Assembly: GCA_020060545.1 (NCBI GenBank)
Contig: JAGUZX010000043.1
Location: 21,020-85,019 of the forward strand
Direction: 5' to 3'
Source of the DNA: Desulfovibrio sp.
GTDB lineage: Bacteria; Bacillota; Dethiobacteria; DTU022
DNA: 64,000 nucleotides
Shown: positions 2,910-17,924 of the stretch, in pieces
Numbering within the stretch: position 1 is the first letter of the stretch
How the letters are laid out: the number at the start of each line of letters is the position of its first letter
Made by a program: the position numbers and the translations under genes
The notes under the pieces: generated by a model
Seen by the model: only the letters and a program-made list of their open reading frames with translations
Databases searched by the model: none
Told to the model about the DNA's origin: nothing

Positions 2910-2947
2910 AGAAAATCGGGAGATAGAGCCGCGGAAGGAGCCGTTAC

Positions 2948-3439: not shown

Positions 3440-3766
3440 ATGACTAAGAACGGTGAAGAAAGAACTGACCTGGTAACCCTGGTCGATGAGGAAGGCAACG
3501 AACATGAATTTGCCGTGGTCGATATTTTTCCGGTTAAATTAAAGCAATACGCGATCCTGGTCCCGGTCAGTTATGACGAGGAAGAGGAAGAAGAAGATCT
3601 TGATTTGGCCGACGACGCCTATATCTTCCGGATCGATCTCAACGAGGAAAGCGGGGAGGAAACGCTGGTCGAAGTAGAGGATGAAGCGGAATGGAACGAA
3701 GTCGCCGCCGAATGGGAAAGCCGGATCCAGGTTCTTGAAGAAGAAGACGAGAAAGAAATATTCTAA
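3440..3766 (+). CDS. DUF1292 family protein (YrzB-like), acidic
   Basis: ATG 7 nt after AAGAGGTG. Conserved position after yqgF. Acidic C-terminus, ~108 aa. Confidence 0.75.
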   Translation: MTKNGEERTDLVTLVDEEGNEHEFAVVDIFPVKLKQYAILVPVSYDEEEEEEDLDLADDAYIFRIDLNEESGEETLVEVEDEAEWNEVAAEWESRIQVLEEEDEKEIF

Positions 3767-3829
3767 TTGCAGGCAAAACGTTTAACGGGCAGGTGATCCT
3801 TTGGTCCTGCCCATGTTGCTTAATTAAGC

Positions 3830-4936
3830 GTGATACTATATAATCCAGGGGAGAACGGGGGTGCGCCGGTGCTGCCGAAGCGAGCTGTAACGGTATGGGG
3901 GGCTTTGCTGGCAGTCCTGCTTTTTTGTACGGCTGGACTGGCGATCAGTTTAAACAGGTTGCTGCTGCCGGTTGATTCCGGCGCCGTAGATGAAGCGGTC
4001 ATGGTCGAGATCCCCTCCGGGGCGAGCACTGAAAGGATCGCCCTGATCCTGGCGGAGGAGGGGATTATCCGAAGCGCCCTGGTCTTTCGCCTTTATGCCC
4101 GCTGGACCGGCCAGGATACCAGGTTTATCGCTGGCATCCATCTGCTCAGCCCGTCCATGGGATTAAAGGAGGTGGTTGCCAGGCTTATCAGCGAAGACGT
4201 CTATCGCGAGACCGCCTGGTTTACCATACCGGAAGGGTTTACCGTGGAGCAGATCGCGGATCGCCTTGCCGCGCTGGGATTGGTTGAACGGAAACGCTTC
4301 CTGGAGCTGGCATTGCAACCACCGGATAGCTTTTTTGAGCGGTTTCCGTATATCGGTGAGATCGAAAGAGCGCAGGTAAAATACCTCCTGGAAGGATACC
4401 TGTTCCCCGATACCTATGAAATAGCGTCCGGTGCGGCGGAAGAGGAGATCATGGCGATTATGCTCGCCCGCATGGAGTTTGTGTATAAAGACGCGGCAGC
4501 GGATAGCGGCCGCCATCCGGCGATGACCATGCACCAGGTCCTTACCCTGGCCGCCATCGTAGAAAAAGAAGCGGGCGTAGTGCAGGACCAGCGGCTAATC
4601 GCCGGCATCTTTTTTAACAGGCTGGCCGTAAACCATGCCCTTGACTCCTGCGCTACCGTCAACTATGTCCTGGGGGAAGCAAAAGAGGTTCTTTCAGGGC
4701 TGGATACGAAGATAGAGTCGCCATATAATACTTATAAATACCCGGGGTTGCCTCCCGGGCCGATCGGCGCTCCCGGCGCAAGCGCGATCCGGGCGGTTTT
4801 TAACCCCGAAGAAACCGACTATTTCTACTTTAACTCCAAGAGAGACGGCTCGGGTGAAAGTTACTTTTCCCGTACTTTGGAGGAACACAACCTTAATACT
4901 CTCCGGGCCGAAGAAAACAGCAGAAAGAGAGGTTAA
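3830..4936 (+). CDS. mltG: Endolytic murein transglycosylase MltG (YceG-like)
   Basis: N-terminal TM helix and YceG-domain motifs (…DTYE…, …YNTYKYPGLPPGPI…). A GTG at 3872 is an alternative start. Confidence 0.88.
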   Translation: MILYNPGENGGAPVLPKRAVTVWGALLAVLLFCTAGLAISLNRLLLPVDSGAVDEAVMVEIPSGASTERIALILAEEGIIRSALVFRLYARWTGQDTRFIAGIHLLSPSMGLKEVVARLISEDVYRETAWFTIPEGFTVEQIADRLAALGLVERKRFLELALQPPDSFFERFPYIGEIERAQVKYLLEGYLFPDTYEIASGAAEEEIMAIMLARMEFVYKDAAADSGRHPAMTMHQVLTLAAIVEKEAGVVQDQRLIAGIFFNRLAVNHALDSCATVNYVLGEAKEVLSGLDTKIESPYNTYKYPGLPPGPIGAPGASAIRAVFNPEETDYFYFNSKRDGSGESYFSRTLEEHNLNTLRAEENSRKRG

Positions 4937-4985
4937 CCGGTTCGTTTGTGGATTTTTAAACCGATCTGTTTTTGTTCGTAATTCA

Positions 4986-5012
4986 AGTGGGGACACTCCC
5001 ACTTTTTATTTT
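4986..5012 (+). terminator. Rho-independent terminator after mltG
   Basis: AGTGGG-gacact-CCCACT hairpin followed by TTTTTATTTT. Confidence 0.6.
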
Positions 5013-5232
5013 CCATCATCGATGAGAAGGCATTGCCAATGGCGGATTTTTGATTAAAGAGCAGGAATATCTAACTTTTTGTCCAATTTTTACTTTATAC
5101 AGCTTGTATACTGACCGCGGCAGGGTGGGTTTTGCGCACCGGGCGGCCGTCCTGCAGGCGGGTGCGGTTTTCGGCTTAACAGCGGCCCTTTTTTGGATCA
5201 TGGATCATGGATTATGGAGATGAACACGGTTC

Positions 5233-6465
5233 ATGGAGTCTGAAGCTGCCGATACCATCGAAACAAACCGCGGGCAGGTGGAGATATTTACCTTTGGCCG
5301 GTTTTTAATCAGGCGCAACGCCAAAAACCTGCCGGAAGGGCAAAGCCGTTCCAAAAAAGTTTGGGCGCTTTTTCAATATTTACTGGCGCAGCGCGGTAAA
5401 GCCATTTCTCCGGAAACGATCTTGGAAGCTTTATGGCCGGGACAAAACTATACGGATCCCAATTTGGCGCTGCGTTCTTTAGTCCATCGCCTGCGCCGGC
5501 TTCTCGCGGAAGGTCTTGATGAACCTGAACTTGCCCTGAACATTGTATTTTCTCAGGGAGGCTATAAATGGGACAGTAAAGTCGACTGCTGGCTCGATAC
5601 TGATGAGTTTGACCGGTTATGCCGGGAAGCTTATTTATGGAGCGATGAACAGCCCGCGCGCGCTATCGATACTTACCAAAAAGCGATCGCTTTATATGAA
5701 GGGCCTTTCCTCCCGGAGTGCTCCTACCATGAATGGGCTATCGCCAGGCAGAACTATTATCACCGTGCTTTTTTGGATAGTGTTTACAGGCTGGCGGAGC
5801 TTTTAAAGAGAGCGCACCGCTTTTCCGAAATAATCGAGGTTTGCCAAAAAGCCTTAAACCTGGAATATTTTGAAGAAGAGTTGCATATTCTTTTTCTTGA
5901 GGCGTTACTGGAAGAAGGGAAAATTAAGCAGGCCAGGGCGCATTACGACGAGGTTACTTCTACTTTTTACAGGGAACTCGGCACCAAGCCCTCGGAGGCG
6001 ATGCGGAATATTTACCGCCTGATCAAGATGGACAAGGACAACTTTGACCTGGATTTGACATATATCCAGGAGGGATTACGGTGCCGGCAGGAAAACCGGG
6101 GGGCTTTACTGTGCGACCCGGATGTCTTTCGTTATTTCTATAAACTGGAACGCTCCAGGAGAGAAAGAACGGGCCAGGCGGTATTCCTGGGCCTGCTGAC
6201 GATAACGCTGCCCGATTACCGGTTGCCCGCGCCTCAAATTTTGAAGGAAGCGATGCTTCACTTGGAAGCGGTTTTGGAAAAAACACTGCGCAAAGGGGAT
6301 GTCATATCCCGCTGGAATGAAGCGCAATTTTTGTTGATCCTGCCCGGTTTGAACCTGGAACAGGCCGAGCGGGTACTGAAGCGGGTCAATGCCGCGTTCA
6401 AGAGCCGTTACAATCTTGGCAGCCTGGTGCTGCATCGCAAGCAGCAGCCTCTGCTGCCTTTATAA
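5233..6465 (+). CDS. SARP/BTAD-type transcriptional regulator with C-terminal degenerate GGDEF domain (putative c-di-GMP effector)
   Basis: N-terminal OmpR/PhoB-type winged helix (VEIFTFGRFLIRRN…LRSLVHRLRRLL), a central TPR-like BTAD domain and a C-terminal GGDEF-like domain. The active site is degenerate (NEAQF instead of GG[DE]EF). An RxxD I-site (RKGD) sits 5 residues upstream. Confidence 0.8.
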   Translation: MESEAADTIETNRGQVEIFTFGRFLIRRNAKNLPEGQSRSKKVWALFQYLLAQRGKAISPETILEALWPGQNYTDPNLALRSLVHRLRRLLAEGLDEPELALNIVFSQGGYKWDSKVDCWLDTDEFDRLCREAYLWSDEQPARAIDTYQKAIALYEGPFLPECSYHEWAIARQNYYHRAFLDSVYRLAELLKRAHRFSEIIEVCQKALNLEYFEEELHILFLEALLEEGKIKQARAHYDEVTSTFYRELGTKPSEAMRNIYRLIKMDKDNFDLDLTYIQEGLRCRQENRGALLCDPDVFRYFYKLERSRRERTGQAVFLGLLTITLPDYRLPAPQILKEAMLHLEAVLEKTLRKGDVISRWNEAQFLLILPGLNLEQAERVLKRVNAAFKSRYNLGSLVLHRKQQPLLPL

Positions 6466-7200: not shown

Positions 7201-8100
7201 ATGGCAAAACAGTACGATACGCCAGTCCTGCTATGCGGAAGATATTTTACCTTACAGGAGTTGCTGGAGATCCGGGAAACGGCGCGCATGTTCCCGAAAC
7301 TGAGCCGCGCTGAGCTGGCGAATACACTCTGTGAGAACTTGGATTGGGTAACGCCGACCGGTAAGTACAAGACAGCCTCATGTCTACAGCTTTTAGAAAA
7401 ACTTGAAGGGCAAGGCTTGATTGACCTGCCGGCTAAGCTGGAGTACAAGAGCGGCGATAAAAATGGGATCGGCTTTGGGCCGCAGACGGCGCCTGCTTCG
7501 CTGCTTGAAGGCCGGGTAGCCGACCTTGAGCCCATCGCCCTTGAGCCGGTGAGAGACCGAAGTGAACTTCGGCTCTGGAACGAGTATGTGCATCGCTACC
7601 ATGAGTTGGGCTACAAGCGGCCCTTTGGGGCCCATCAGCGCTACTTCATCGTTTCTGCTGCCGGGTCTTTAGGATGCCTTCTGTTTGCTGCTGCCGCCTG
7701 GGCGCTTCAAGCCCGCGACGAGTGGATTGGGTGGAGCGAAGTTGACCGCAGCCTGCGCCTGAACTTAATTGTAAACAACACCCGCCTGCTGATCTTTCCC
7801 TGGGTTAGGGTAAAAAACCTGGCCAGTAAAACCTTATCCCTGGCGGCAAAACGCATCAGTTCTGACTGGCAGGAGCGCTACGGTTACAGCCCGGTATTAC
7901 TGGAGACCTTTGTCGACCCGGAGAAACACCGGGGCACCTGTTACCGGGCGGCCAACTGGATCTTTTTAGGCCAAACCAAAGGGCGCGGCCGCACAGAAAT
8001 GCATAACAAAAGGCCCTTTACGCGCAAATATATTTATGTTTACCCGCTTTGTTGTGACTTCCGCTTTATTCTTTGCGGGAAAGGCGGGGATGTCAGGTGA
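7201..8100 (+). CDS. IS-associated accessory protein (DUF4338-like), orfA of the IS
   Basis: 299 aa. Its stop overlaps the transposase start (GTGA). This family is recurrently found next to DDE transposases. Confidence 0.6.
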   Translation: MAKQYDTPVLLCGRYFTLQELLEIRETARMFPKLSRAELANTLCENLDWVTPTGKYKTASCLQLLEKLEGQGLIDLPAKLEYKSGDKNGIGFGPQTAPASLLEGRVADLEPIALEPVRDRSELRLWNEYVHRYHELGYKRPFGAHQRYFIVSAAGSLGCLLFAAAAWALQARDEWIGWSEVDRSLRLNLIVNNTRLLIFPWVRVKNLASKTLSLAAKRISSDWQERYGYSPVLLETFVDPEKHRGTCYRAANWIFLGQTKGRGRTEMHNKRPFTRKYIYVYPLCCDFRFILCGKGGDVR

Positions 8101-9659
8101 ATGCATCGTTGCCGAAGGTTGTAAAGCGCCATGAACGCAGACAAAAACAGCGTGAGCAGAAGGAGCGGCAAAAAAGGCAGCCGGCTCAGTATCCTTTTGT
8201 TACTGCGTTTGCGAACCGCAAAAGTGACTGCAAAACAGTAGATGAAGAAAAAGAAGCCATCCAGCACACAACGGAGGCCGTACTTGATGTATACATACAG
8301 CTGCTGCCGGGGCTTTTGAAAAAGCTGTCCCTGATACCCGACCCGCGGAACCCCAAGAAAATTAAGCATCAGATAACTGTGCTGATGATCTACGGGATCC
8401 TGATGTTTGTCTTTCAAATCCCCTCCCGGCGCCAGACAAACCGGGAGATGACCACGCCGCAGCTTCATAAAAACCTTAAAGCCGTCTTCGGCGAACTTAA
8501 GGAGATGCCGCATCAGGATACCCTGTACCGCCTGTTGGCAGAGATAGATGTGGATCAGCTCGAGAACATCTACCTAGACATCCTAAGAAGCTTAATCCGC
8601 AAGAAAAAGTTCAAAAACCTGCTTTTAAGTAAGCGCTATCTCGTGGCAGTGGACGGCACACAAAAATACGTCATGAAAGAATGTTGGGACAAACGTTATC
8701 TTAGGCGAAAATTTCGCGGCAAAGACGGCAAATACCAGTATTATGCATACGTTTTAGAAGCGGTTTTAATCTTTTCAAACGGCATGGTGCTGCCTTTGAT
8801 GAGCGAATTTCTGGAGAACACCAAGGCGCTGGAAAGAATCGAGGACGACTTGGAATGGAAACAAGATTGCGAGTTGAAAGCATTCCACCGGCTGGCCAAA
8901 CGGCTGAAGAAAGAGTTTCCGAAACTGCCGCTCACCCTGCTTTTAGACGGGTTGTATGCGAACGGTCCCGTTATGAAAGTTTGCTTAAAGAATAAGTGGG
9001 ACTATATGATCGTTTTAAAAGACGGCTCCCTTGCCTGCGTTTGGCAGGAAGTCAAAGGACTGATGCGCCTAGATACCAAAGGAGAACACCGCTGTAAAAA
9101 AGTATGGCAGGGCCGTAGGCAAATCTTTAGATGGGTAAACGGCATCGAATATGAATATGGTCTGGGCAGAGGTAAAAAAGTGCTGACCATCAATGTGGTG
9201 ATCTGTAACGAAAGCTGGAAAGAAACCGATAGAAAGGGCAATATGGTGGGAAAAACCGGCCATCACGCCTGGATTTCCAGCGTGCCGCTGAACCACAAAA
9301 ATGTCTATGAACGCTGCAATCTGGCGGCCCGGAAACGCTGGTCGCACGAGAACAATATTCTAAAAGAAAAGCATCATGGTTACCACTATGAACACATCTT
9401 TGCCTATGACTTCGATGCGATGCGGGGTTATCACTACCTTATGCATATAGCCCGCATGTTAAATGAACTGATGCTTCATTCAATTAACCTGATCGAAGAG
9501 GTCAAGACAGTCGGCATCCAGGCATTCCTGCGTAAATTTCGCGAAGTTATGATCCACAGGGAGCTCGATACAAAGCAGCTTCGCCTGTTGTCAGAATCCC
9601 CGGGACAGTTGCGGCTGGTGCAGGAAGAAAACTGGCAAACGAACTGGCCGGCGGCATAA
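8097..9659 (+). CDS. DDE transposase, IS4-like
   Basis: LVAVDGTQ (first Asp) and a C-terminal R-x3-E-x6-K (RKRWSHENNILKEK) resembling the IS4 Y(2)R(3)E(6)K motif. ~520 aa. GTG start is coupled to the upstream ORF. Confidence 0.75.
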   Translation: MNASLPKVVKRHERRQKQREQKERQKRQPAQYPFVTAFANRKSDCKTVDEEKEAIQHTTEAVLDVYIQLLPGLLKKLSLIPDPRNPKKIKHQITVLMIYGILMFVFQIPSRRQTNREMTTPQLHKNLKAVFGELKEMPHQDTLYRLLAEIDVDQLENIYLDILRSLIRKKKFKNLLLSKRYLVAVDGTQKYVMKECWDKRYLRRKFRGKDGKYQYYAYVLEAVLIFSNGMVLPLMSEFLENTKALERIEDDLEWKQDCELKAFHRLAKRLKKEFPKLPLTLLLDGLYANGPVMKVCLKNKWDYMIVLKDGSLACVWQEVKGLMRLDTKGEHRCKKVWQGRRQIFRWVNGIEYEYGLGRGKKVLTINVVICNESWKETDRKGNMVGKTGHHAWISSVPLNHKNVYERCNLAARKRWSHENNILKEKHHGYHYEHIFAYDFDAMRGYHYLMHIARMLNELMLHSINLIEEVKTVGIQAFLRKFREVMIHRELDTKQLRLLSESPGQLRLVQEENWQTNWPAA

Positions 9660-9871
9660 TGGCCAAGTTATAAGGTAGAAGCCCGCCTGAGCCACACTAC
9701 CCGTCTGTCCTTTGGTTGGCACCTGGCAGGCCAAAGTGCGCAAAACGATTCACCAAAAAGCGCTGTTGGGGACTAAACAACAAGTTTCTGGAAATAATCG
9801 TCAGTTGACTTGTGCAAAAAAGCTGATTTCGGGCCTCGCAAGATTTTTAAGAATTTCATGCGTCAGCTCTG

Positions 9872-9880
9872 TTCTTTCCG
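9872..9880. repeat. Target-site duplication TTCTTTCCG (right copy)
   Basis: Identical to 7048-7056. Confidence 0.8.
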
Positions 9881-9989
9881 CAGTTTTCTTGAATTAATCA
9901 TGCTCATGACGGAAGCCCTGGGCAAAGTAAAAGGCCGGGAGGCGGCAGCTAATTTACTCTCCTGGGACGATAAAGAAGAGGTTTCGTAG
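9872..9989 (+). pseudogene. 3' part of small-protein paralog 2 (continues the frame interrupted at 7056)
   Basis: After excision of the IS plus one TSD copy in silico, the frame continues …SFRSFLELIMLMTEALGKVKG…LSWDDKEEVS*. This aligns with the C-terminus of paralog 1 (QQFCDFTEMMLLIQEKL…RSWPDSPSK). Confidence 0.7.
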
Positions 9990-10107
9990 TTCAAGGTTCA
10001 TATTTGGCGCAGGTGATAGACGGACGGTTGCGGCTTGAGGCTTAAATGAAAGGCATAGTGCCGGGCGTTTTAGTACAGGCAGTTAAGACTGGCGGGGTGA
10101 AAAGCTT

Positions 10108-12186
10108 TTGAATATTCTAGTTGTTGACCGCAATGAAATATTCCCGGATCTTCTCAAAAAGGTCCTGGTTGAAGACAAAAAATGGAACATTATTACCTGC
10201 TCCTCGGGGCTGGTAACGCTGAAGCTCATTCAAAAATTCACTCCCGATATGCTGATCATGGATCTCAACCTGCCCGATATCGACAGCTTTGAAATGCTAA
10301 GCAAGCTGAAAAGCTTCAGCCGGGAGATCTATACGCTGGTTTTAATCGACAAACTGGAGTACGGGAAGCTTGAGCAGGCGCTTTTAGTCGGCATTGACGA
10401 CTATGTGGTGAAACCGATCGAACAAAAAGAGATGATCGCGCGGATCAAGAAAGCGATCTGGTCCAGTTCCCGGAGAAGCGCCCCGGGGATGGACAGGGAG
10501 GCGGGCATCCCTAAGCCCTGGGCGCTGGACGAAGAGCTGCCGGGGGTCAACCATATCATCATCTATCCCAATACCGCCTCCAAAATCCAAGAAACACGGG
10601 GGGAAGCTGCGGCAACCGGGCTGGAAAACGCCGGCGGGACGGATTTTCTAAAAACGGCGCGCGCTGCCGCAGCTGAAATAAACCCTGACGCGGCCGGGCA
10701 TGTGCAAAAGGACAATCCGCCGGTGAAGAGCGCTTCAACCTATACCTTCGGGTTAGTTAAACCGGTTGGTTTAAGCGGAGCGGATGCCGGCCAAACAGCA
10801 GTTTGCGATCCCCCGCCGGAAATCGCCGGCTTAACCCGCTCCGCGATAACTAATGCTCCTGTAGAAACGGATTCTTTTAGCGGCCCGGGTAGCCGGGGTG
10901 AAGCGGCGCCGGCTGAAGCTGAGCCCAAAAGCTGCGGCCGTAATTTGGCCGAAGAAGAAAAGGCCGATCCGCCAGGGTATCTTGAGTGGCCCGGCGAGGA
11001 CGAGTTCAATACCCGCCTGAACACAGGCGGCGGTACGGGGGGCGCGGCGGCCGGAACCGAAAACGCCGGCGGTATTCCTTTTCGAAAAGAGGCCGCGTTT
11101 TTTTCGGCGGGAGCAGCGCCTGCCGCAAGCCGGGATCGTGAAGGCGGCGCGGCGCCGGAGCGTGACCCGTCATATTTCTTTGGTAAACCGGTACGGATGG
11201 ACAGGGCAGGTGAGCCGGCAGAACCGGGACCGGATCGCCTGGAACCTCCCGATGCGTTAAAAGTGGAAGCCGATTTATTACAGCCGGGAGAGTCGAGCGC
11301 TCAGGAAAAACCAAAACCTTGGCGAAGCGCCGGCAGCGTCACGGGAGAGGCAGGCGCAGGAAAGCAAAGCGCCGGGCCCCTTTCTGCCGGCAAAGAGAGC
11401 GGCGCTTATACGGCGGAAGATAAACCCGGCGAAGAGCGATCCAGTGATCGCGGTTTTGCGGCAGAGGGCCTTGCAACCTATTCCTTTGGGTTAAAGCAGG
11501 CGGGAAAATCCAGTCAAGCCGAGGACTGGCCGGCGGTCTCTAAAAGCCGGGCCTACGCCAGGCCTCCGCTGGGCGGCAAAGAGAAAAAGAAGAAACAACC
11601 GGCCGTCGTGAGGATTTTGGGCAACATTTTTTTTGCCGGCTTGATGGTGATGATGGTGACCCTGGCTTTTTTCCTGGTCCAAAGCAGAATGGCCGGAGGC
11701 CCGCCGTCGGTGTTTGGCCACCAGTTGTATGTGGTGCTCAGCGGCAGCATGAACCCCGCTTTTAGCACGGGGAGCCTGGCTTTCGTCTGCCCGATTGAGC
11801 CCGAAAATGTTAAAGTAGGCGATATTATTACTTTTAAAAGCTCGCCGGTCGGCAAAACCCTTACCACTCACCGCGTAGTGGAAATCGACGGCGAAGACGG
11901 GCTTAGTTTTGTGACACGGGGTGACGCAAACCGGGTCAACGACCCCAACCCGGTTCCGGCGGAAAATGTGATCGGAAAGGTAAACGGTGCCATCCCTTAC
12001 CTGGGGTATCTGCTGGATTTCGCCAAAACCAGAAACGGGCTGCTTTTCCTGGTGGTGGTGCCGGGACTGCTGGTGATTGCCTTCGAGTTGCGCAGCCTGT
12101 TCCGGTATGCGGTTGAAAACCAAAAGCAGAAAGAGCTGCAAAAGGGAGGCGGTTTATATGCCGGACGGGTGGTGGATCAGCAATGA
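10108..12186 (+). CDS. Response-regulator receiver domain fused through a ~380-aa low-complexity linker and a TM helix to a SipW-type (archaeal/ER-type) signal peptidase I
   Basis: N-terminal REC domain (phospho-acceptor D in LIMDLNLPD, K in DYVVKP). An Ala/Gly/Pro/Glu-rich linker spans ~aa 120-500. TM segment VVRILGNIFFAGLMVMMVTLAFF. C-terminal S26 domain with catalytic SGSMNP (Ser), TTHRV (His) and a GDAN box. TTG start. Confidence 0.85.
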   Translation: MNILVVDRNEIFPDLLKKVLVEDKKWNIITCSSGLVTLKLIQKFTPDMLIMDLNLPDIDSFEMLSKLKSFSREIYTLVLIDKLEYGKLEQALLVGIDDYVVKPIEQKEMIARIKKAIWSSSRRSAPGMDREAGIPKPWALDEELPGVNHIIIYPNTASKIQETRGEAAATGLENAGGTDFLKTARAAAAEINPDAAGHVQKDNPPVKSASTYTFGLVKPVGLSGADAGQTAVCDPPPEIAGLTRSAITNAPVETDSFSGPGSRGEAAPAEAEPKSCGRNLAEEEKADPPGYLEWPGEDEFNTRLNTGGGTGGAAAGTENAGGIPFRKEAAFFSAGAAPAASRDREGGAAPERDPSYFFGKPVRMDRAGEPAEPGPDRLEPPDALKVEADLLQPGESSAQEKPKPWRSAGSVTGEAGAGKQSAGPLSAGKESGAYTAEDKPGEERSSDRGFAAEGLATYSFGLKQAGKSSQAEDWPAVSKSRAYARPPLGGKEKKKKQPAVVRILGNIFFAGLMVMMVTLAFFLVQSRMAGGPPSVFGHQLYVVLSGSMNPAFSTGSLAFVCPIEPENVKVGDIITFKSSPVGKTLTTHRVVEIDGEDGLSFVTRGDANRVNDPNPVPAENVIGKVNGAIPYLGYLLDFAKTRNGLLFLVVVPGLLVIAFELRSLFRYAVENQKQKELQKGGGLYAGRVVDQQ

Positions 12187-12761
12187 GGTATAAGCTAATT
12201 CTAAGCATCGTCGTTTTGCTGCTGGCCGTTTCCCTTGTCAGCGGCGCCACCACCGCCTGGTTCTCCGACCAGGCGGTTATAGATCCCAATATATTTACCG
12301 TTACTGTCAGCTCGCAAAAAGACAGCGCCTGGGGCGACGGGACAGTCTATCATGCCACGAATCACCGCTATTTTGAATTTACCAAAAGCCAGCTCCTGGA
12401 GACCGGCGGGCGGCAGGCCGACCTTGTGCAGGGGCCGGACGGCAATAAAAAGGTGCTGGGCAAAGTCACGGTTTGGATTGAAACGGTCAGCGGCGTGCAA
12501 ACTTTGTGTGTCAAGTTTGACACCACCGGATACGGCTTGATCGAAAAAACCGATGTTTATGCGGGGCTGCCTTCGGCGGGCAATCCGCCCAACAGCCCCG
12601 GGAAGTATGGGTCGCACCGCACGTATTACGGCAACACGGTAACGATATCCCTGCATCACGATATCACCAGGATCAATGACGGCGGCGCGGGGGTGAGCAT
12701 TTCCCAACTGGGCGGCAGCACCTTAATCCGCATCGCCGCCCATGCCGATGTTTATCACTAG
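12183..12761 (+). CDS. TasA/camelysin (peptidase M73)-like secreted protein with SipW-cognate signal peptide
   Basis: Signal peptide followed by ATTAWFSD (the AxFxD SipW-cognate motif). ATGA overlap with the sipW-fusion stop indicates translational coupling. 192 aa. Confidence 0.8.
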   Translation: MRYKLILSIVVLLLAVSLVSGATTAWFSDQAVIDPNIFTVTVSSQKDSAWGDGTVYHATNHRYFEFTKSQLLETGGRQADLVQGPDGNKKVLGKVTVWIETVSGVQTLCVKFDTTGYGLIEKTDVYAGLPSAGNPPNSPGKYGSHRTYYGNTVTISLHHDITRINDGGAGVSISQLGGSTLIRIAAHADVYH

Positions 12762-12877
12762 GTGCCAAAACTGATCGCATCACGCCAAGACCGGCGATGT
12801 GATCGTTTGCGAGATTTTCGAGAGGGGGGAATAAAGCAACGCAGCATGATCTTGCCCTAAAACTCGCCTAAATTAAC

Positions 12878-12960
12878 GATAATGGCAAACCTGCCGCAAG
12901 GCGGGGACGCAAAGCCAAGGGCCTTTCGCAAGGATGGCAGCCTGGCCGCCGGGGGAAAAA
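12878..12960 (+). ncRNA. c-di-GMP-I (GEMM) riboswitch, copy 1
   Basis: GGCAAACC-UGCC-GCAA(tetraloop)-GGCGGGGACGCAAAGCC followed by a P2 region. It matches the invariant GEMM core (…GGCAAACC…GNRA…GGGACGCAAAGCC…) of the V. cholerae Vc2 aptamer. It lies 25 nt upstream of the RBS of the second TasA-like gene. Confidence 0.8.
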
Positions 12961-12986
12961 GATAAGTGTAAATGGAGGGAGCAAAA

Positions 12987-13604
12987 ATGAATCGAAAAGT
13001 AATGATGAGCGTCCTGGTGATCCTGATGGCCACGGCGGCCGTGGCCGGCGCCACCATGGCCTGGTTTACCGACACGGCAACAGTTGAACCCAACACTTTC
13101 GTGGCGGGGACATTGAAAATCAGGGCCAACGAGGTGTTCAATTGGGCGGATCAAACCAGGCCCAATTGGAACCCCGGGGACTGTGACCAAAAGGAAATTA
13201 CCCTTGAAGTGACGGGGACCAAGTCGGTCTATCTCCGGGCCCGGATTACGGAAACATGGACCATGGTCGGTGCAAGCACGGTAACTTACACCAGGCGGAA
13301 TGCGCCGAACATCACCTGGAAAGTGAACGGACAACCCTGGAACCATGACGGCGCCTGGCAGTTGATCACCATCGACGGCGTTGATTACTGGTTCTATAAA
13401 GGCCCCGTTGACGCCAAACTGGCCTCGGGAGCGCAATTGCTGGTTCTTTCGGAGGTCTGCCTGGATGGAGCGGCCACGGGCAACGACTACCAGGGGGCTA
13501 CGTATACGCTGGCCATTTCTTTTGAAGCGGTTCAGACCACGAACCAGGCGGTAAACGATGTATGGGGATACAAGTTCGAAGGCGGTTCATGGGTGCCCAG
13601 ATAG
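12987..13604 (+). CDS. TasA/camelysin-like secreted protein 2 with SipW-cognate signal peptide
   Basis: ATG 6 nt after GGAGGGAG. Signal peptide followed by ATMAWFTD. 205 aa. Paralogous to 12183..12761. Confidence 0.8.
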   Translation: MNRKVMMSVLVILMATAAVAGATMAWFTDTATVEPNTFVAGTLKIRANEVFNWADQTRPNWNPGDCDQKEITLEVTGTKSVYLRARITETWTMVGASTVTYTRRNAPNITWKVNGQPWNHDGAWQLITIDGVDYWFYKGPVDAKLASGAQLLVLSEVCLDGAATGNDYQGATYTLAISFEAVQTTNQAVNDVWGYKFEGGSWVPR

Positions 13605-13741
13605 AACAGAAAAGGAAAAAGGCAGTTGTTTTTTTCGTGTAATCCGAAACTTGACCCGCTCAATCTTTCCCATGGAAAGGGAAGGATTGGGCGGGGATCG
13701 CAGCGAGGCGGCATCATTTTGTTCAAAAGAGTTGGTGTCTG

Positions 13742-14407
13742 ATGCAAATGCAAAAATTCGTTCCGGCGATCATCAGTTTAGGGATAATGCTGGCTCTGGC
13801 CGGCCTGGTCCTGCTCATCCAACCTTACTATACGCTTGCCCAGGAAGACCATCCGTGCCGGATCACGGTTACCCCGCCGGAGGGCCGTTTTGCGATTGGG
13901 AATATGAATCCGGGTGACACGGCAAGTAAAAGCTTCACCGTGACCAAGGTCGGAGAGGCTCCTGCCTATCTTTACCTGAGGCAGGAATGGCTGCAGGGAA
14001 ACCCCCTCCCGGGTATGCCGGGAGATCTTTACAGCCAGCTCGTCATGGTAATCAGTTACCAGGGACGCCAGATTTACCGGGGCAAGATGAGCGCCCTGCC
14101 GAACCCGGTTAACGTTACCTTAATGACGCTGGGCCGCCCGATCCTGGTCGGCGAGTCGATCCGGCTCGACTGCAGCGTCCACCTTCCGGGGCCGGAGACC
14201 GGCAACGAGTTTCAGGGTTCGAGCGTGGTCACAAGGCTTGTTTTTTATACCGCCTGTTTCGAAGATGAGGAAGTTCCACCGGAGCCTCCGGAGATTGATC
14301 CTCCGGAGCTCCCGCCGACAAACGGCGTATTGCCGATGCTCCTGCTTGCCGCCGGGGTTTCAGTGATTTTCGCGGGGATTGTGCTCAGGAAAAAGGCGGA
14401 GGCGTAA
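13742..14407 (+). CDS. Secreted beta-rich protein with C-terminal LPPTNG-type cell-wall sorting signal (putative fibre anchor)
   Basis: N-terminal signal/TM. Pro-rich stalk (EEVPPEPPEIDPPE) followed by LPPTNG, a hydrophobic stretch and RKKAEA. This is the tripartite architecture of sortase substrates. Confidence 0.65.
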   Translation: MQMQKFVPAIISLGIMLALAGLVLLIQPYYTLAQEDHPCRITVTPPEGRFAIGNMNPGDTASKSFTVTKVGEAPAYLYLRQEWLQGNPLPGMPGDLYSQLVMVISYQGRQIYRGKMSALPNPVNVTLMTLGRPILVGESIRLDCSVHLPGPETGNEFQGSSVVTRLVFYTACFEDEEVPPEPPEIDPPELPPTNGVLPMLLLAAGVSVIFAGIVLRKKAEA

Positions 14408-14468
14408 GCGGCCGCCCGAGACCCTTCCGGTTACAGGCTGCCTGGCCGCCGCCAAAGGAGAGATCTTG

Positions 14469-14714
14469 ATGAACTGGAATTACCGGGTTTTGAAAGTGTA
14501 TGATCGCGAGCATGACAGCTATTATTACACGATTATCGAAGTTTTTTACGATCAAGCCGGCCGGATCGAGGGTTGGGTCAAAAACACTCAGCCCACGCGA
14601 TGGGAAGACTATGAGGGTTTAAGGCAAACGATCCTGGAACATCTGCCTGTTGCGTTTCAACAACCGGTGTTAATCGAGGTTGAAAATGAAAAATTGGTAG
14701 AATGCGCGGATTAA
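14469..14714 (+). CDS. Small hypothetical protein
   Basis: ATG 8 nt after AAGGAGAG. 81 aa with no recognisable domain. Confidence 0.45.
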   Translation: MNWNYRVLKVYDREHDSYYYTIIEVFYDQAGRIEGWVKNTQPTRWEDYEGLRQTILEHLPVAFQQPVLIEVENEKLVECAD

Positions 14715-14911
14715 GTTAGTAATCGATCCTATGCGGATGTATCATCCCAAAAAAAACTTGTGACTGGTAATATTTGTTGCAGGAATTTAAGGTTTATTGG
14801 CCAAAATAAGTATATGGATGTTTGGATTGGATGAGCTGTTAATTGAGACCTTAAAGGAGATGATGGCCGGCAAGATCCTGACTGCGAATTCAAGCAAGTA
14901 AAAATCCTGAC

Positions 14912-15000
14912 CGACAAGGCAAACCCGTCGAGAGGCGGGGACGCAAAGCCAAGGGTCTAAAGCCCGATTGACGGGCCATGATCGCCAGGCTACCGAAACA
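14912..15000 (+). ncRNA. c-di-GMP-I (GEMM) riboswitch, copy 2
   Basis: GGCAAACCCGUCGAGAGGCGGGGACGCAAAGCCAAGGGUCUAAAGCC…GGCUACCGAAACAGG. Same core as copies 1 and 3. The downstream GGTCCCTC…GAGGGAC hairpin (15020-15042) can sequester the RBS. Confidence 0.8.
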
Positions 15001-15048
15001 GGTTTTATTATTTCGGCTGTCGGTCCCTCACAAAGGAGGGACTTTATT

Positions 15049-16140
15049 TTGAGCAAAATAAGGTTTATTAATAGCATCGTGATCAGCGTTGTGATCGCCC
15101 TGATCCTTTCACTGCCGGGGATTTCAAAAATTACTGCCAGGGAAGATCTGACAATTTCGACTGTGGGCGCCGCGTCAAACGAAGCGGGAGCAGAAGAAGG
15201 CCCGGTGTTGCGGGAAGCAACGGCCGGCCTGCCTGGCGGCCCCGATCAGATTGGCCAGGCGGAAGCGGAAATAAACGGTGGTGCCGGAAACGCACCGGAA
15301 CAAAGTTCAACGCCGGGTTCCAGCCCGGAGCAGGGCGCTGTGCCAAAGCAGGAACTGGCTGCCGGGGAACAGTTGACGGAGAAGTCAACAGGCGCGCCGC
15401 CGCAGGAAGCGGTGAAAAATGAACCGGTCCAGGAGACGGTAAAAAGCGAGCCGGCCCCGCCCCCAACCAAGAGTGAAACGCCGCCGCCTGCCGCGCCGGT
15501 CAGCTTCAGTTGGGGCGCCGCGCAAACCTATCGTTACCGCACGGAGATAGTGTTAACCAACAGCGGAGCGGAAGTTTCACAGGGCGTACTGGTCAGGCTG
15601 CCCCTGCTGGAAAACAGCTCGCCGTATCAAAACACCACCCTCACTTCCATTAACTATGAACCTCTTGAGACCACGGGAAGGACAAGCTCTTTTCATCTCG
15701 GAGACATGCAGCCGGGTGAAACGAAAACGCTAATCGTGGATTATACCATTACGGTGCGCCCCGTTTGGCTCAATTCAACCAATGCGACCGTGGAAAAAGC
15801 AAGGCAGGCTTACCGGGAGTACGCCGGGAGCGGCAACTGCTTTGTTCTGGCGGCCGGTTTTGTAAACCGCAGCCGGGAATTGGGTCTTACCGCGCGGGTG
15901 GTCAACGGGATTGCCAACCCGCAAAGAGGGATATTCGCGCCGGGCTATATCCAAAACCGTCACAGCTGGGCCGAGTTTTATGTCGAAGGGCCGGGTTGGG
16001 TTCCGGTTGACCTTACTTTTCAATATTTCGGGCAGCTGCCCCAGGCTTCCCATATCGTCGAGAACTACGCCGACCAATCGCTGAAGCTCAACTATTTCGG
16101 GGGCAGAGTAAGCGCAGTTTGGCACACCAGAATCCTGTAA
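15049..16140 (+). CDS. Secreted transglutaminase-like cysteine protease superfamily protein with Pro/Glu-rich spacer
   Basis: TTG start 8 nt after GGAGGG, downstream of the riboswitch. Signal/TM MSKIRFINSIVISVVIALILSL. C-terminal transglutaminase-like core (Cys in GNCFVLAAGF, His in HSWAEFY, Asp in VPVDLT). Confidence 0.7.
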   Translation: MSKIRFINSIVISVVIALILSLPGISKITAREDLTISTVGAASNEAGAEEGPVLREATAGLPGGPDQIGQAEAEINGGAGNAPEQSSTPGSSPEQGAVPKQELAAGEQLTEKSTGAPPQEAVKNEPVQETVKSEPAPPPTKSETPPPAAPVSFSWGAAQTYRYRTEIVLTNSGAEVSQGVLVRLPLLENSSPYQNTTLTSINYEPLETTGRTSSFHLGDMQPGETKTLIVDYTITVRPVWLNSTNATVEKARQAYREYAGSGNCFVLAAGFVNRSRELGLTARVVNGIANPQRGIFAPGYIQNRHSWAEFYVEGPGWVPVDLTFQYFGQLPQASHIVENYADQSLKLNYFGGRVSAVWHTRIL

Positions 16141-16292
16141 AAGGATCCGGGGTGGGAAAATACGCCGTGAAAAAAAGAGAACAGTACCCGTCCGCTTTTA
16201 AGCGCAAATGGTTTGATCGGGTTTCCGAAGCAGCCATAAATTAAAGGTATAAATTAGCTTCCCCTGGAGGAGAATGATTCAGGGGGATTTTT

Positions 16293-17924
16293 TTGGAACG
16301 TTTTTTCCGCCAGAAACGGATCCTGTGGCTGCTGATCGGCCTGAGCGGCATCGTGTTTTTTCTGGCCGGCAAATTATTTTACCTGCAGCTGGTGCAGGGG
16401 CCTTCACTGACCCGGAGCGCCGTGCAGCAGCGCTTCCAAAGCATCATCCTGCTGGAAGGCCGCGGCGATATTCAGGATCGCCACGGGCGCTCTCTGCTGG
16501 ACGGGCGGCGCTCGATCGGGTTGCTCGCTTTCCCGGCCCAGTACCGCGGCAGTGAAGAAGAGATTATCCACCGCCTCTCTTCAGTAAACGGTATTGAAAA
16601 AATATCTTCCCCCCCGTATGGCCCCCTCCCTTTTTGGGTTACGCCCACCCTGAAACAGGATGTGCACACGCCACTTCCTACATTGCCGGGATTGATCCTC
16701 GCGTCCAGGGTGCAGCGCTACGGGCCTGACGCCCTCGCCAGGCATGCCGTGGGCTACCTCAAGGAAAGCGACGGCAGGGGAGTAAGCGGGATCGAGCTGT
16801 CTTTCGATCGCGAGCTGTCGGCGGGCCAAAAAACGGTCCTGGCGGCGCTGGTGGACGGGCGGAGCAGGCTGATCCCGGGCCTGGGTTACCGGATGCGCAA
16901 AGAAGAACCCGAAGCAAAAAACGTGGTCCTGGCCATCGATGGAGATCTGCAGCGCGAGGTGGAGCGGATCATGAACCGGCGGATCCGGCAGGGAGCGGTC
17001 GTGGTGATGGATCCCTGGAACGGGGATATCCTGGCCATGGCGAGCAGGCCTGATTTCAACCCGGGTGACCTGGGCGGGTCCTTGCTGCAGGAGTACGAAT
17101 CTTTTCTCAACCGGGCGCTCTGGGAATTCCAGCCCGGCTCGGTGTTCAAGGTGGTGGCCGCCGCCGCCGCGCTGAAAGAAGGCAAAGCCGGGCTATTTCA
17201 GACCTACCGCTGCCCGGGCGGTATTACTGTGGGCGGCCTTTTCTTCGCCTGCTCCAACCTGCACCAGAAGCAGGAGATCACCATGGTCGAGGCTTTCGCC
17301 CACTCCTGCAACAGCTATTTTATCAACCTGGCGCTTGAACTGGGCCCGGAGACGGTGGCCGCGTACGCGCGGCGTTTCGGTTTCGGTGAGGTTACGGGCC
17401 TGCCCGTGGGGGAGAAGCCCGGTTCCCTGCCCGCCGCGGCGGATCTGTCCAACCCGCGCGCCCAGGCCAACACCGCCATCGGCCAGGGCGCGGTACTGGC
17501 GACGCCGCTCCAGGTAGCGGCGATGTTCTCTGTAATAGCCAACGGCGGACACAAAATTCAGCCCCGCCTGGTACTGGCGCTGACGGACCGCTACGGGCGC
17601 GAATTCAGGCGCTTTTTGCCGCGGCGCGGTCAGGTGCTCCTCAGCCCGGTGACGGTAAGTCAGCTTAAATACCTGCTCATGGCGGTAATGGAGGAGGGGA
17701 CCGGGCGGCGGGGTAATACAACCGCCGCGCCGGCGGGGGCCAAGACCGGCACCGCCGAAAGCGGCCGCCGCCGGGACGGGCGGGAGGTGCTCAATCACTG
17801 GATCGCCGGCTTTTATCCGATTGAGCAGGCCGGGGCGGTAATCGCGGTATTTGCCGATGACCTCCTGGAGGGGACGGTGAGCGACGTATTCGGAGAGATC
17901 ACGAGATACCTGGAACGAAGGTGA
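16293..17924 (+). CDS. Class B penicillin-binding protein (FtsI/SpoVD-type transpeptidase)
   Basis: N-terminal TM. SVFK (SxxK), HSCNSYF (SxN) and AKTGTAE (KTG) motifs. 543 aa. Confidence 0.88.
   Translation: MERFFRQKRILWLLIGLSGIVFFLAGKLFYLQLVQGPSLTRSAVQQRFQSIILLEGRGDIQDRHGRSLLDGRRSIGLLAFPAQYRGSEEEIIHRLSSVNGIEKISSPPYGPLPFWVTPTLKQDVHTPLPTLPGLILASRVQRYGPDALARHAVGYLKESDGRGVSGIELSFDRELSAGQKTVLAALVDGRSRLIPGLGYRMRKEEPEAKNVVLAIDGDLQREVERIMNRRIRQGAVVVMDPWNGDILAMASRPDFNPGDLGGSLLQEYESFLNRALWEFQPGSVFKVVAAAAALKEGKAGLFQTYRCPGGITVGGLFFACSNLHQKQEITMVEAFAHSCNSYFINLALELGPETVAAYARRFGFGEVTGLPVGEKPGSLPAAADLSNPRAQANTAIGQGAVLATPLQVAAMFSVIANGGHKIQPRLVLALTDRYGREFRRFLPRRGQVLLSPVTVSQLKYLLMAVMEEGTGRRGNTTAAPAGAKTGTAESGRRRDGREVLNHWIAGFYPIEQAGAVIAVFADDLLEGTVSDVFGEITRYLERR

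What the first reader, a model, noticed from the sequence alone, without database searches (positions are those of the whole stretch)
10108..12186. Receiver (REC) domain fused to a SipW-type signal peptidase through a ~380-aa disordered linker
Signal peptidases are not normally two-component outputs. Here a phospho-acceptor REC domain is cytoplasmic and N-terminal to a TM helix and an extracytoplasmic S26 catalytic domain (SGSMNP Ser, TTHRV His). The domains are separated by an Ala/Gly/Pro/Glu-rich low-complexity region (~10470-11580). This suggests phosphorylation-gated or partner-gated processing of the cognate TasA-like substrates encoded immediately downstream, a signalling architecture I am not aware of having been described. 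The REC domain keeps only one acidic residue of the usual N-terminal pair (LVVDRNE), so it may be a pseudo-receiver.
Basis: partly seen in the sequence, partly recalled or inferred. Interest (0 to 1): 0.85.

Follow-up and report, generated by a model that had tools for sequence, protein, structure and literature searches.

The report
Receiver domain fused to SipW peptidase
This is a real, single gene joining a two-component receiver domain, through a long floppy cytoplasmic tether, to a membrane signal peptidase that matures biofilm-fibre proteins; over 100 uncultured relatives share the design, yet no paper found here describes it.

Summary
ORF 10108-12186 (+) encodes 692 aa in four parts:
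- a receiver (REC) domain, aa 3-114
- a linker of about 376 aa, predicted disordered
- a TM helix
- a SipW-type S26B signal peptidase with intact Ser547/His588/Asp606

It overlaps the first of two downstream TasA/BsaA-like genes that carry SipW-type signal peptides.

It is not an assembly artefact. I found 117 non-redundant REC-SipW fusions (320-884 aa), mostly in Dethiobacteria-like Bacillota MAGs.

Linker length tracks the state of the receiver. With linkers of 200 aa or more, 60 of 64 keep the phospho-acceptor Asp and the conserved Lys, while only 1 of 64 has the second metal-binding acid. With linkers under 60 aa, 0 of 38 keep both.

The linkers carry clade-specific aromatic short motifs. 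The window protein has three Y-x-F-G copies. Thirteen long-linker relatives are catalytically dead peptidases that still keep REC and the motif. No histidine kinase lies in the window or near any recognised fusion.

Best reading: this is an active, dedicated fibre-subunit peptidase with a cytoplasmic REC-plus-tether arm that works by motif docking. Rigid allosteric gating of catalysis is unlikely.

No paper describing this architecture was found. Databases call it only "signal peptidase I". I class it as a new variant of a known kind, of moderate-to-high interest.

The parts
10108..12186 (+). Whole REC-linker-SipW gene (692 aa, TTG start, stop included)
   Evidence: The exact protein is in NCBI and IMG, named only 'signal peptidase'.
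10114..10449 (+). Receiver (REC) domain, aa 3-114. Key residues: D7, R8 (replaces the second acid), D52 (phospho-acceptor), D81 (at the Thr/Ser position), Y99, K102.
   Evidence: PF00072 scores 60.3 bits. Residues were mapped against PleD and CheY/Spo0F. AlphaFold2 predicts a (beta-alpha)5 fold at pLDDT 76-93.
10261..10263 (+). Codon for D52, the phospho-acceptor Asp
   Evidence: It aligns to PleD D53 and CheY D57. It is conserved in 60 of 64 fusions with linkers of 200 aa or more.
10468..11595 (+). Cytoplasmic disordered linker, aa 121-496, ending in the polybasic stretch KEKKKK (aa 491-496)
   Evidence: The frame is open against chance. pLDDT is below 50 with no secondary structure. No Pfam or NCBIfam hit. 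Homologous fusions have linkers of 16-574 aa.
10741..10752 (+). Linker motif 1: Y212-T-F-G
   Evidence: It lies in a repeat unit similar to unit 2 (11 of 2000 shuffles reach the score).
11173..11184 (+). Linker motif 2: Y356-F-F-G
   Evidence: L001 and L002 have related motifs, SSYFVTP and SSFFITAP.
11479..11490 (+). Linker motif 3: Y458-S-F-G. It sits about 40 aa before the TM helix, a membrane-proximal position comparable to the SAD[DE]FL[FY]G motif of the largest long-linker clade, which lies about 50-80 aa before the TM.
   Evidence: Unit 2 versus unit 3 similarity is reached by 12 of 2000 shuffles.
11605..11685 (+). TM helix 1 (about aa 500-526), N-in orientation, preceded by KEKKKK
   Evidence: Hydropathy and an AlphaFold2 helix at aa 497-529.
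11701..12027 (+). Extracytoplasmic S26B catalytic domain with Ser547 (nt 11746-11748), His588 (11869-11871) and Asp606 (11923-11925)
   Evidence: TIGR02228 scores 127 bits. These are invariant columns in the family alignment. The triad is intact in 104 of 117 fusions.
12037..12093 (+). TM helix 2 (about aa 644-662), followed by a cytoplasmic C-terminal tail to aa 692
   Evidence: Hydropathy and an AlphaFold2 helix at aa 642-680.
12183..12761 (+). First putative substrate: 192-aa protein with a SipW-cognate signal peptide (GATTAWFSD). Its start overlaps the peptidase stop (ATGA).
   Evidence: TIGR04088 scores 25.9 bits against a cut-off of 19. The overlap is visible in the sequence.
12972..13604 (+). 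Second putative substrate: 210-aa TasA/BsaA/camelysin-like protein (GATMAWFTD)
   Evidence: TIGR04088 scores 34.8 bits, and there is a partial TIGR04090/BsaA match. Peptidase_M73 E = 2.5e-10.
13742..14407 (+). p221: conserved cluster member with an N-terminal TM and a C-terminal sortase-like sorting signal (LPPTNG, hydrophobic stretch, RKK)
   Evidence: Homologues occur in most SipW loci and end in LP[RK]T[GDSE]G, a hydrophobic stretch and a basic tail.
14968..16140 (+). Membrane-anchored transglutaminase-like protein; the gene is enriched next to REC-SipW fusions
   Evidence: PF01841 E = 5e-12. Present at 8 of 22 fusion loci against 1 of 33 stand-alone loci, Fisher p = 0.0017.

Best explanation
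Shown here: the gene encodes a single membrane protein with four parts. These are a cytoplasmic receiver domain, a cytoplasmic disordered tether of about 376 aa carrying three Y-x-F-G motifs, a TM helix, and an extracytoplasmic SipW-type (S26B, Ser-His-Asp) signal peptidase.

Inferred from family knowledge: the peptidase half is catalytically competent. It is the dedicated processing enzyme for the TasA/BsaA-like fibre subunits encoded just downstream, within a conserved fibre cluster that also has a sortase-anchored base protein and a transglutaminase-like enzyme.

Inferred, and the part I commit to: the REC-plus-linker half is a cytoplasmic regulatory arm that works through tethered protein-protein interaction. 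The linker's short aromatic motifs are docking sites, and their availability or partner choice depends on the state of the REC pocket (D7/D52/K102 retained). That state is either phosphorylated by an unlinked donor or locked in a phospho-independent form by R8 and D81. A long, length-variable disordered tether cannot carry a rigid conformational change to the catalytic domain. So the arm most likely couples fibre-subunit export to a cytoplasmic partner (localisation, sequestration or feedback) rather than switching catalysis on and off.
For: Identity:
- Both domains score above their curated cut-offs.
- The catalytic triad is intact and invariant.
- Cognate signal peptides sit next door, with an ATGA stop/start overlap.
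- AlphaFold2 gives folded REC, TM helices and catalytic domain with a disordered middle.

Genuine and selected:
- 117 non-redundant fusions from independent assemblies.
- The frame is open against chance.

The arm is functional rather than decaying:
- With linkers of 200 aa or more, D57 is kept in 60 of 64, K109 in 61 of 64, and an acid at position 12 in 60 of 64.
- Among the 65 fusions that keep both D57 and K109, Y106, P110 and D104 are also 97-100% conserved, while REC identity has a median of 41% and a minimum of 20%.

Docking motifs:
- [FYW]x[FYW]G occurs 32 times against 5.6 +/- 2.2 in shuffles.
- Motifs are clade-specific and membrane-proximal: LPGxSAD[DE]FL[FY]G, SFE[ED][LI]FG, and S[YF]xF.
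- They are almost exclusive to these proteins within the loci.
- The window linker shows internal-duplication similarity around its three motifs.

Independence from catalysis:
- 13 of 64 long-linker proteins lack the catalytic Ser and/or His, and the seven examined in the genome loci still keep REC D57/K109 and a SADx[YF]L motif.

Against rigid gating:
- Linker length ranges from 16 to 574 aa.

Precedent from the literature:
- REC domains bind short peptides; CheY binds the FliM N-terminal peptide, and the D13K-containing variant is constitutively active (bioRxiv 10.1101/781468).
- B. subtilis SipW is reported to have a second, regulatory role in matrix gene expression (Terra et al. 2012, PMID 22328672, as summarised in PMC13082335).
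Against: - No partner has been identified.
- AlphaFold2 did not dock any motif. The three motif regions have pLDDT of about 27-42. The small rise at aa 361-380 coincides with stray alignment fragments, and the alignment used had no coverage of the linker.
- The window's Y-x-F-G motifs resemble those of other clades only loosely.
- The correlation between linker length and REC state involves only a few clades, so the counts are not phylogenetically independent.
- Strict conservation of the phospho-acceptor pocket is what classical phosphorylation control would also predict.
- Peptidase activity and substrate assignment are inferred from homology and gene order. They were not tested.
Confidence: 0.45

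Rival explanations
1. Classical response-regulator logic. An unlinked histidine kinase or a small-molecule donor phosphorylates D52. REC~P, for example through dimerisation, then switches SipW processing of the TasA-like pre-proteins on or off.
For: - REC sits N-terminal to an enzymatic domain, as in ordinary response regulators.
- D57 and K109 are conserved in 60 of 64 long-linker fusions despite deep divergence.
- In C. perfringens the sipW-bsaABCRSD operon carries its own two-component system, so TCS control of this pathway has precedent (PMC7395162).
- REC-driven dimerisation would work whatever the tether length.
Against: - The second metal-binding acid is absent in 63 of 64 long-linker fusions and is Arg in the window protein. 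The Thr/Ser switch residue is replaced by D/E/N/S.
- No kinase lies in the 64-kb window or within about 10 kb of any recognised fusion.
- A disordered tether of about 376 aa cannot transmit allostery.
- Dead-peptidase paralogs keep REC, so catalysis cannot be the only output.
- All 38 short-linker fusions keep an intact peptidase but none keeps both D57 and K109.
Confidence: 0.25
2. Phospho-independent structural appendage. The REC-like domain and tether only provide dimerisation, stability, turnover control or membrane-domain/polar localisation for the peptidase, with no signal-dependent switching.
For: - The canonical quintet is incomplete.
- R8 sits at the position where a Lys substitution (in the D13K-Y106W variant) makes CheY constitutively active.
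- No kinase lies nearby.
- The short-linker clade has clearly degenerate receivers yet retains the domain.
Against: - A purely structural role does not obviously need an invariant D57/K109/Y106 set in domains that are only about 30-40% identical.
- It also does not explain conserved linear motifs within an otherwise fast-evolving tether.
Confidence: 0.2
3. Artefact. Two adjacent genes, a response regulator and sipW, are read as one because of a sequencing frameshift or assembly error, or the linker is non-coding or foreign DNA.
For: - The linker's GC content (61%) differs from REC (45%) and SipW (54.5%).
- One related locus (L019) appears to carry a split copy.
- An IS lies just upstream.
Against: - The linker has 0 stops in 380 codons, and 0 of 20,000 shuffles stayed open.
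- The same architecture occurs in 117 non-redundant proteins from many independent assemblies and environments.
- The closest relatives, L001 and L002, have the same fusion with a linker of about 105-114 aa.
Confidence: 0.02

Closest known systems
[quoted passage not shown]
   Same: - Same catalytic family and Ser-His-Asp residues.
- Same N-in TM anchor, extracytoplasmic domain and C-terminal TM.
- Dedicated to adjacent TasA-family substrates with the TIGR04088-type signal peptide.
- SipW is reported to be bifunctional, with a regulatory role beyond cleavage (Terra et al. 2012, cited in PMC13082335).
   Different: - B. subtilis SipW is about 190 aa with a very short cytoplasmic N-terminus. This protein adds roughly 500 cytoplasmic residues (REC plus a disordered tether).
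- It scores below the Bacillus SipW equivalog cut-off (145.5 against 190 bits).
- My recollection, not checked here, is that the regulatory role of B. subtilis SipW maps to its C-terminal region, not to an N-terminal domain.
Clostridium perfringens sipW-bsaABCRSD operon (BsaA fibres plus the BsaS/BsaR two-component system)
   Same: It has a SipW peptidase, TasA-like BsaA/BsaB fibre subunits and two-component signalling genes in one operon (PMC7395162; PMC11580942). It shows that receiver-based control is coupled to this pathway elsewhere. It also offers a plausible route to a gene fusion.
   Different: There the response regulator BsaR is a separate DNA-binding protein acting on the sipW promoter, and a kinase, BsaS, is present. 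Here REC is covalently tethered to the peptidase. There is no DNA-binding domain and no kinase nearby.
Response regulators with non-DNA-binding outputs (for example CheB, PleD, RssB, PorX)
   Same: An N-terminal REC is followed by an enzymatic or adaptor domain. The REC of this protein aligns best to PleD, VicR and PhoP receivers.
   Different: Those outputs are cytoplasmic and joined by short structured linkers that allow allosteric or dimerisation control. Here the output lies across the membrane, behind a tether of about 376 disordered residues, and the receiver lacks two canonical residues.
Atypical or pseudo-receivers, and constitutively active CheY carrying D13K
   Same: The second acidic residue is lost (R8 in the window protein) and so is the Thr/Ser. 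D13K-containing CheY is active without phosphorylation (bioRxiv 10.1101/781468). The short-linker relatives are clear pseudo-receivers.
   Different: The window protein and its long-linker relatives keep the phospho-acceptor Asp, the Lys and the aromatic switch residue under strong conservation. They are therefore not aspartate-less receivers.

Membership tests
Receiver domain superfamily (Pfam PF00072, CheY-like) | Profile score above the gathering threshold across the full domain | tested here: met
   60.3 bits against 30.2, profile positions 1-111 of 111. There are 108 PDB receiver hits at E < 1e-5.
Receiver domain superfamily (Pfam PF00072, CheY-like) | (beta-alpha)5 fold | tested here: met
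   AlphaFold2 predicts five strands alternating with five helices over aa 2-124 at pLDDT 76-93.
Canonical phosphorylatable receiver | Phospho-acceptor Asp (CheY D57) and conserved Lys (K109) | tested here: met
   D52 and K102. Both are kept in 60 of 64 long-linker relatives.
Canonical phosphorylatable receiver | Acidic pair that binds Mg2+ (CheY D12 and D13) | tested here: not met
   D7 is present, but R8 replaces the second acid. The second position is acidic in only 1 of 64 long-linker fusions.
Canonical phosphorylatable receiver | Thr/Ser switch residue (CheY T87) | tested here: not met
   D81 (HMMER alignment) or I80 (MAFFT alignment) occupies this position. Relatives have D/E/N/S.
Functional two-component response regulator | Cognate histidine kinase or phosphotransfer to the receiver | tested here: inconclusive
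   A kinase-core HMM finds nothing in the 64-kb window or in any locus with a recognised fusion. Orphan kinases elsewhere in the genome cannot be excluded, and phosphotransfer cannot be tested with these tools.
ER/archaeal-type signal peptidase I (S26B; TIGR02228, SipW-like) | Profile score above the curated cut-off | tested here: met
   127.3 bits against 51.85.
ER/archaeal-type signal peptidase I (S26B; TIGR02228, SipW-like) | Catalytic Ser, His and Asp. Tjalsma et al. 2000 showed Ser, His and Asp to be critical in B. subtilis SipW (my recollection). | tested here: met
   S547, H588 and D606 lie in invariant columns.
ER/archaeal-type signal peptidase I (S26B; TIGR02228, SipW-like) | N-in TM anchor, extracytoplasmic catalytic domain and C-terminal TM | tested here: met
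   KEKKKK precedes the hydrophobic stretch at aa 500-526, and a second hydrophobic stretch lies at aa 644-662. AlphaFold2 predicts matching helices.
ER/archaeal-type signal peptidase I (S26B; TIGR02228, SipW-like) | Adjacent substrates with the SipW-cognate signal peptide (TIGR04088) | tested here: met
   Both downstream ORFs pass the cut-off. Actual cleavage cannot be tested here.
Bacillus SipW equivalog (NF046067) | Score above the equivalog cut-off | tested here: not met
   145.5 bits against 190. It belongs to the same family but is not an orthologue-level match.
Aspartate-less or pseudo-receiver | Phospho-acceptor Asp absent | tested here: not met
   D52 is present in the window protein. 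By contrast, 31 of 38 short-linker relatives lack it.

The most novel reading that the evidence does not exclude
The family is a transmembrane signalling device that runs in the opposite direction to a normal response regulator. The SipW or SipW-like ectodomain engages signal peptides or nascent fibre subunits and acts as the sensor. The tethered REC-plus-motif arm is the cytoplasmic output. The catalytically dead paralogs would then be dedicated receptors. This would be a new way of reporting secretion or fibre-assembly status to the cytoplasm.
Probability: 0.15. Interest if true: 0.85.

Novelty: new variant of a known kind. Interest (0 to 1): 0.62.

Why it matters
Signal peptidases are usually treated as unregulated housekeeping enzymes. 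Receiver domains are usually catalogued with cytoplasmic outputs.

This family puts a receiver on a dedicated fibre-subunit peptidase and is conserved across more than 100 non-redundant proteins. It has gone unnoticed partly because Pfam matches only the REC half, so domain censuses would record these proteins as REC plus an unknown region.

It offers a natural series for studying receiver evolution and tether function:
- intact-pocket receivers with long, motif-bearing tethers
- decayed receivers with short tethers
- dead-peptidase paralogs

If the arm couples secretion to regulation, it would extend the reported second, regulatory role of B. subtilis SipW into a defined molecular module.

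One practical limit: every example found so far is in an uncultured MAG.

Tried and rejected
- **Full-length homologue search.** It returned only the protein itself plus unrelated receivers. P0005-P0007 looked similar in length but are not SipW fusions.
- **Exact-sequence contig look-up.** Nothing on record.
- **Self-BLASTP of the linker.** It reported no repeats. Only targeted local alignment of the units around the motifs gave modest significance, and units 1 versus 3 were not significant.
- **Promoter and terminator scan of 9600-16400.** Counts were at the shuffle expectation, so it says nothing about operon structure.
- **Unbiased search for gene families that track the fusion.** Apart from the transglutaminase-like gene it found only housekeeping synteny: AlaRS, DUF1292, YceG, isocitrate dehydrogenase, HAD, acyl-CoA dehydrogenase and PhzF. 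I rejected these as functional partners.
- **AlphaFold2 pLDDT rise at aa 361-380.** I considered it as evidence of motif docking and rejected it. It coincides with stray aligned fragments from P0018 and P0030. No contact or PAE output was available.
- **Frameshift or foreign insertion as the origin of the linker.** Rejected on open-frame statistics and family conservation.
- I did not use the second structure job or the third homologue search. The structure tool reports no contacts, so a docking test could not have been read out.
Full report
**Observation**

It starts with TTG, the most upstream start possible in that frame. Homologues begin at the same 'MNIL' position.

Pfam finds a full-length receiver domain at aa 3-114 (PF00072, 60.3 bits, gathering score 30.2) and nothing else. 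NCBIfam finds an archaeal/ER-type signal peptidase I at aa 505-661 (TIGR02228, 127.3 bits, cut-off 51.85). The Bacillus SipW equivalog scores 145.5 bits, below its 190-bit cut-off.

The quoted motifs are real. Ser547 lies in SGSMNP, His588 in TTHRV and Asp606 in RGDAN, and all three sit in invariant family columns.

The stop codon overlaps the start of the next gene (ATGA at 12183-12186). That gene and the following one both carry the SipW-cognate signal peptide, TIGR04088. The second also resembles BsaA, TasA and camelysin.

**Is the linker real?**

The linker (aa 121-496) has no stop in 380 codons, while the other five frames have 7-19. None of 20,000 composition-preserving shuffles stayed open. 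It is rich in Ala, Gly, Pro and Glu, with net charge -13.

AlphaFold2 used an alignment that covers only the folded parts. It gives a confident (beta-alpha)5 REC at aa 1-124 and pLDDT below 50 with no secondary structure across essentially all of aa 131-492. It then predicts a TM helix at 497-529, a beta-rich catalytic domain and a C-terminal helix at 642-680.

Hydropathy and the KEKKKK stretch before TM1 put REC and the linker in the cytoplasm and the catalytic domain outside.

**It is a family, not a one-off**

- A search with the SipW half returned many close relatives of 320-372 aa that also carry PF00072.
- A scan of one genome per species found 80 loci. HMMs for the two halves identified 40 fusion ORFs in 32 of those loci, 325-813 aa long, several with two fusion genes per locus.
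- An exhaustive HMMER search of 1.84 billion cluster representatives placed 67 REC+SipW fusions among the top 150 hits, up to 884 aa.
- After removing duplicates there are 117 full-length fusions.

Nearly all come from MAGs labelled Dethiobacteria, 'Syntrophomonadaceae' or Bacillota. I found none in a cultured strain. Public annotation calls them only 'signal peptidase (I)'.

An alignment shows that the REC-like domains are homologous across the whole family. In a neighbour-joining tree of the peptidase domain, the fusions cluster apart from the bulk of the roughly 200-aa stand-alone SipWs. This rules out a frameshift or mis-assembly for the window gene.

**Where the window protein sits**

Its closest relatives are L001 (identical to P0143; 417 aa, 59% identity) and L002 (435 aa). 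Both have the same REC and peptidase but a linker of only about 105-114 aa. The window's long linker is therefore an independent expansion. It is not inherited from the other long-linker clades.

Segments around its three Y-x-F-G motifs (aa 212-215, 356-359 and 458-461) are weakly but significantly similar. Units 1 versus 2 are matched by 11 of 2000 shuffles and units 2 versus 3 by 12 of 2000. Units 1 versus 3 are not significant. That fits growth by internal duplication of a motif-bearing unit.

**State of the receiver**

Residues were mapped against PleD, CheY and Spo0F.

| CheY position | Window residue | Status |
|---|---|---|
| D12 | D7 | kept |
| D13 | R8 | lost |
| D57 | D52 | kept |
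| T87 | D81 | lost |
| Y106 | Y99 | kept |
| K109 | K102 | kept |

Across the 117 fusions the receiver state tracks linker length.

| Linker length | n | D57 | K109 | D57 + K109 | Acid at 12 | Acid at 13 | Intact Ser/His/Asp |
|---|---|---|---|---|---|---|---|
| 200 aa or more | 64 | 60 | 61 | 60 | 60 | 1 | 51 |
| 60-200 aa | 15 | 7 | 5 | 5 | 6 | 1 | 15 |
| under 60 aa | 38 | 7 | 2 | 0 | 1 | 4 | 38 |

Among the 65 proteins that keep D57 and K109, REC identity has a median of 41% and a minimum of 20%. Even so, D104, Y106 and P110 are 97-100% conserved. The counts come from a handful of clades and are not independent. The contrast with the decayed short-linker clade still shows that the pocket is under selection in the long-linker forms.

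The pocket is unusual, because the second acid and the Thr/Ser are systematically missing. A CheY variant carrying D13K is a classic constitutively active form (bioRxiv 10.1101/781468), and the window protein has Arg at that position. So 'pseudo-receiver' is too simple and 'ordinary receiver' is also wrong.

**The linkers carry short conserved motifs**

The pattern [FYW]x[FYW]G occurs 32 times in 47 long linkers against 5.6 +/- 2.2 in shuffles. Printing the membrane-proximal 100 residues shows clade-specific motifs:
- LPGxSAD[DE]FL[FY]G, about 50-80 residues before the TM helix, in the largest clade.
- PGESADx[YF]L in the dead-peptidase clade.
- SFE[ED][LI]FG plus KVEYL in the E-N-D-K clade.
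- S[YF]xF in L001 and L002, and three times in the window protein. The window's last copy lies about 40 residues before the TM helix.

Within the loci these motifs are almost confined to the fusion proteins. They look like docking sites inside an otherwise fast-evolving disordered tether.

**Dead-peptidase paralogs**

Thirteen of the 64 long-linker proteins lack the catalytic Ser and/or His. In four genome loci (L004, L005, L013, L018) such a copy is encoded immediately after an intact fusion. The seven dead copies seen in the genome loci keep REC D57/K109 and a SAD motif. Whatever the cytoplasmic arm does, catalysis by the attached domain is not required for it. The window has only one fusion gene, and it is intact.

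**Genomic context**

No histidine kinase or second receiver was found in the 64-kb window. I tested this with phmmer using three hybrid kinases and with a kinase-core HMM at E up to 1. In the related loci the kinase-core HMM hit only loci with stand-alone or truncated SipW ORFs, never one with a recognised fusion.

The conserved neighbours are:
- one to three TasA-like genes;
- a p221 homologue that ends in a sortase-type sorting signal;
- a membrane-anchored transglutaminase-like gene.

The first two are common to all SipW loci. The transglutaminase-like gene is enriched at fusion loci: 8 of 22 against 1 of 33, p = 0.0017. Other fusion-associated families are housekeeping synteny.

**Mechanism**

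Shown here:
- the fusion is genuine and has this anatomy;
- the catalytic residues are intact;
- cognate-type substrates lie adjacent;
- the REC pocket and the linker motifs are under selection;
- no kinase lies in cis.

Inferred: the peptidase processes the adjacent fibre subunits. The REC-plus-tether arm acts by tethered, motif-mediated protein-protein interaction that depends on the REC state.

I prefer this over direct phospho-gating of catalysis for two reasons. A disordered tether that varies from 16 to 574 aa cannot carry a rigid conformational signal. And dead peptidases keep the arm.

Receiver domains are known to bind short peptides; CheY binds the FliM N-terminal peptide. B. subtilis SipW is reported to have a second, regulatory role (Terra et al. 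2012, as summarised in PMC13082335). Classical phosphorylation control remains a serious rival because the acceptor pocket is so well conserved. A purely structural role is also possible.

**Literature and novelty**

- No paper in the held library combines SipW, signal peptidase and receiver domain.
- None of the 20 top-ranked titles and abstracts among the 96 papers that mention both SipW and response regulators points to a fusion; I opened only one of them (PMC7395162).
- Further searches found nothing on such a fusion or on membrane-anchored response regulators.
- An archaeal two-component census does not mention peptidase outputs.

The nearest precedent is the C. perfringens sipW-bsaABCRSD operon. 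There a separate kinase and DNA-binding regulator sit in the same operon as sipW (PMC7395162).

Pfam matches only the REC half, so domain-architecture surveys would miss the peptidase.

I class this as a new variant of a known kind. It is conserved and mechanistically open, and it is currently confined to uncultured organisms.

Noticed in passing
L004:2310-4004, L005:2904-4604, L013:7442-9184, L018:10803-12428, L071:651-2423, L019:5085-7139, L008:15494-17230: A clade of REC-linker-SipW paralogs has lost the catalytic Ser (now D/E/R/N) and His (now Q/K/M/N/S). They keep REC D57/K109 and a PGESADx[YF]L linker motif. In four loci (L004, L005, L013, L018) they sit immediately after a catalytically intact fusion gene. 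These are predicted pseudo-peptidases.
   Followed up: partly
window 13742-14407, plus homologues in about 33 related loci: The 221-aa cluster protein has a C-terminal sortase-type sorting signal. Relatives end in LP[RK]T[GDSE]G, a hydrophobic stretch and a basic tail; the window version reads LPPTNG. It is likely the cell-wall-anchored base of the TasA-like fibre. No sortase gene was looked for.
   Followed up: partly
window 14968-16140: The membrane-anchored transglutaminase-like gene (PF01841; Cys, His and Asp candidates visible by eye) is strongly enriched next to REC-SipW fusions: 8 of 22 loci against 1 of 33, p = 0.0017. This hints at cross-linking or processing of the fibre.
   Followed up: partly
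window 7201-9659: A DruA-like (Druantia) ORF of 299 aa overlaps a DDE transposase ORF of 528 aa. Neither has a counterpart in the syntenic relative L001, which otherwise shares alaS, DUF1292, yceG and the next gene upstream. This looks like a mobile insertion about 450 bp upstream of the fusion gene and could affect its promoter.
   Followed up: partly
L011:15-2182, L024:861-2917, L041:9635-11700: Short-linker loci carry two tandem REC-SipW genes of about 325-365 aa, both catalytically intact and both with decayed receivers. In L011, L024 and L041 the two genes overlap by 4 nt.
   Followed up: no
L019:1342-3347: A 434-aa ORF carrying the FEELFG linker motif is followed by a 169-aa SipW-only ORF. 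This is probably a fusion gene split by a frameshift or assembly error in that MAG.
   Followed up: no
window 46-6465 and 16293-17924: The fibre cluster sits in a conserved chromosomal slot: alaS, DUF1292 and yceG/mltG upstream and a class B PBP downstream. The same order is seen in L001, L028, L035 and L041.
   Followed up: partly
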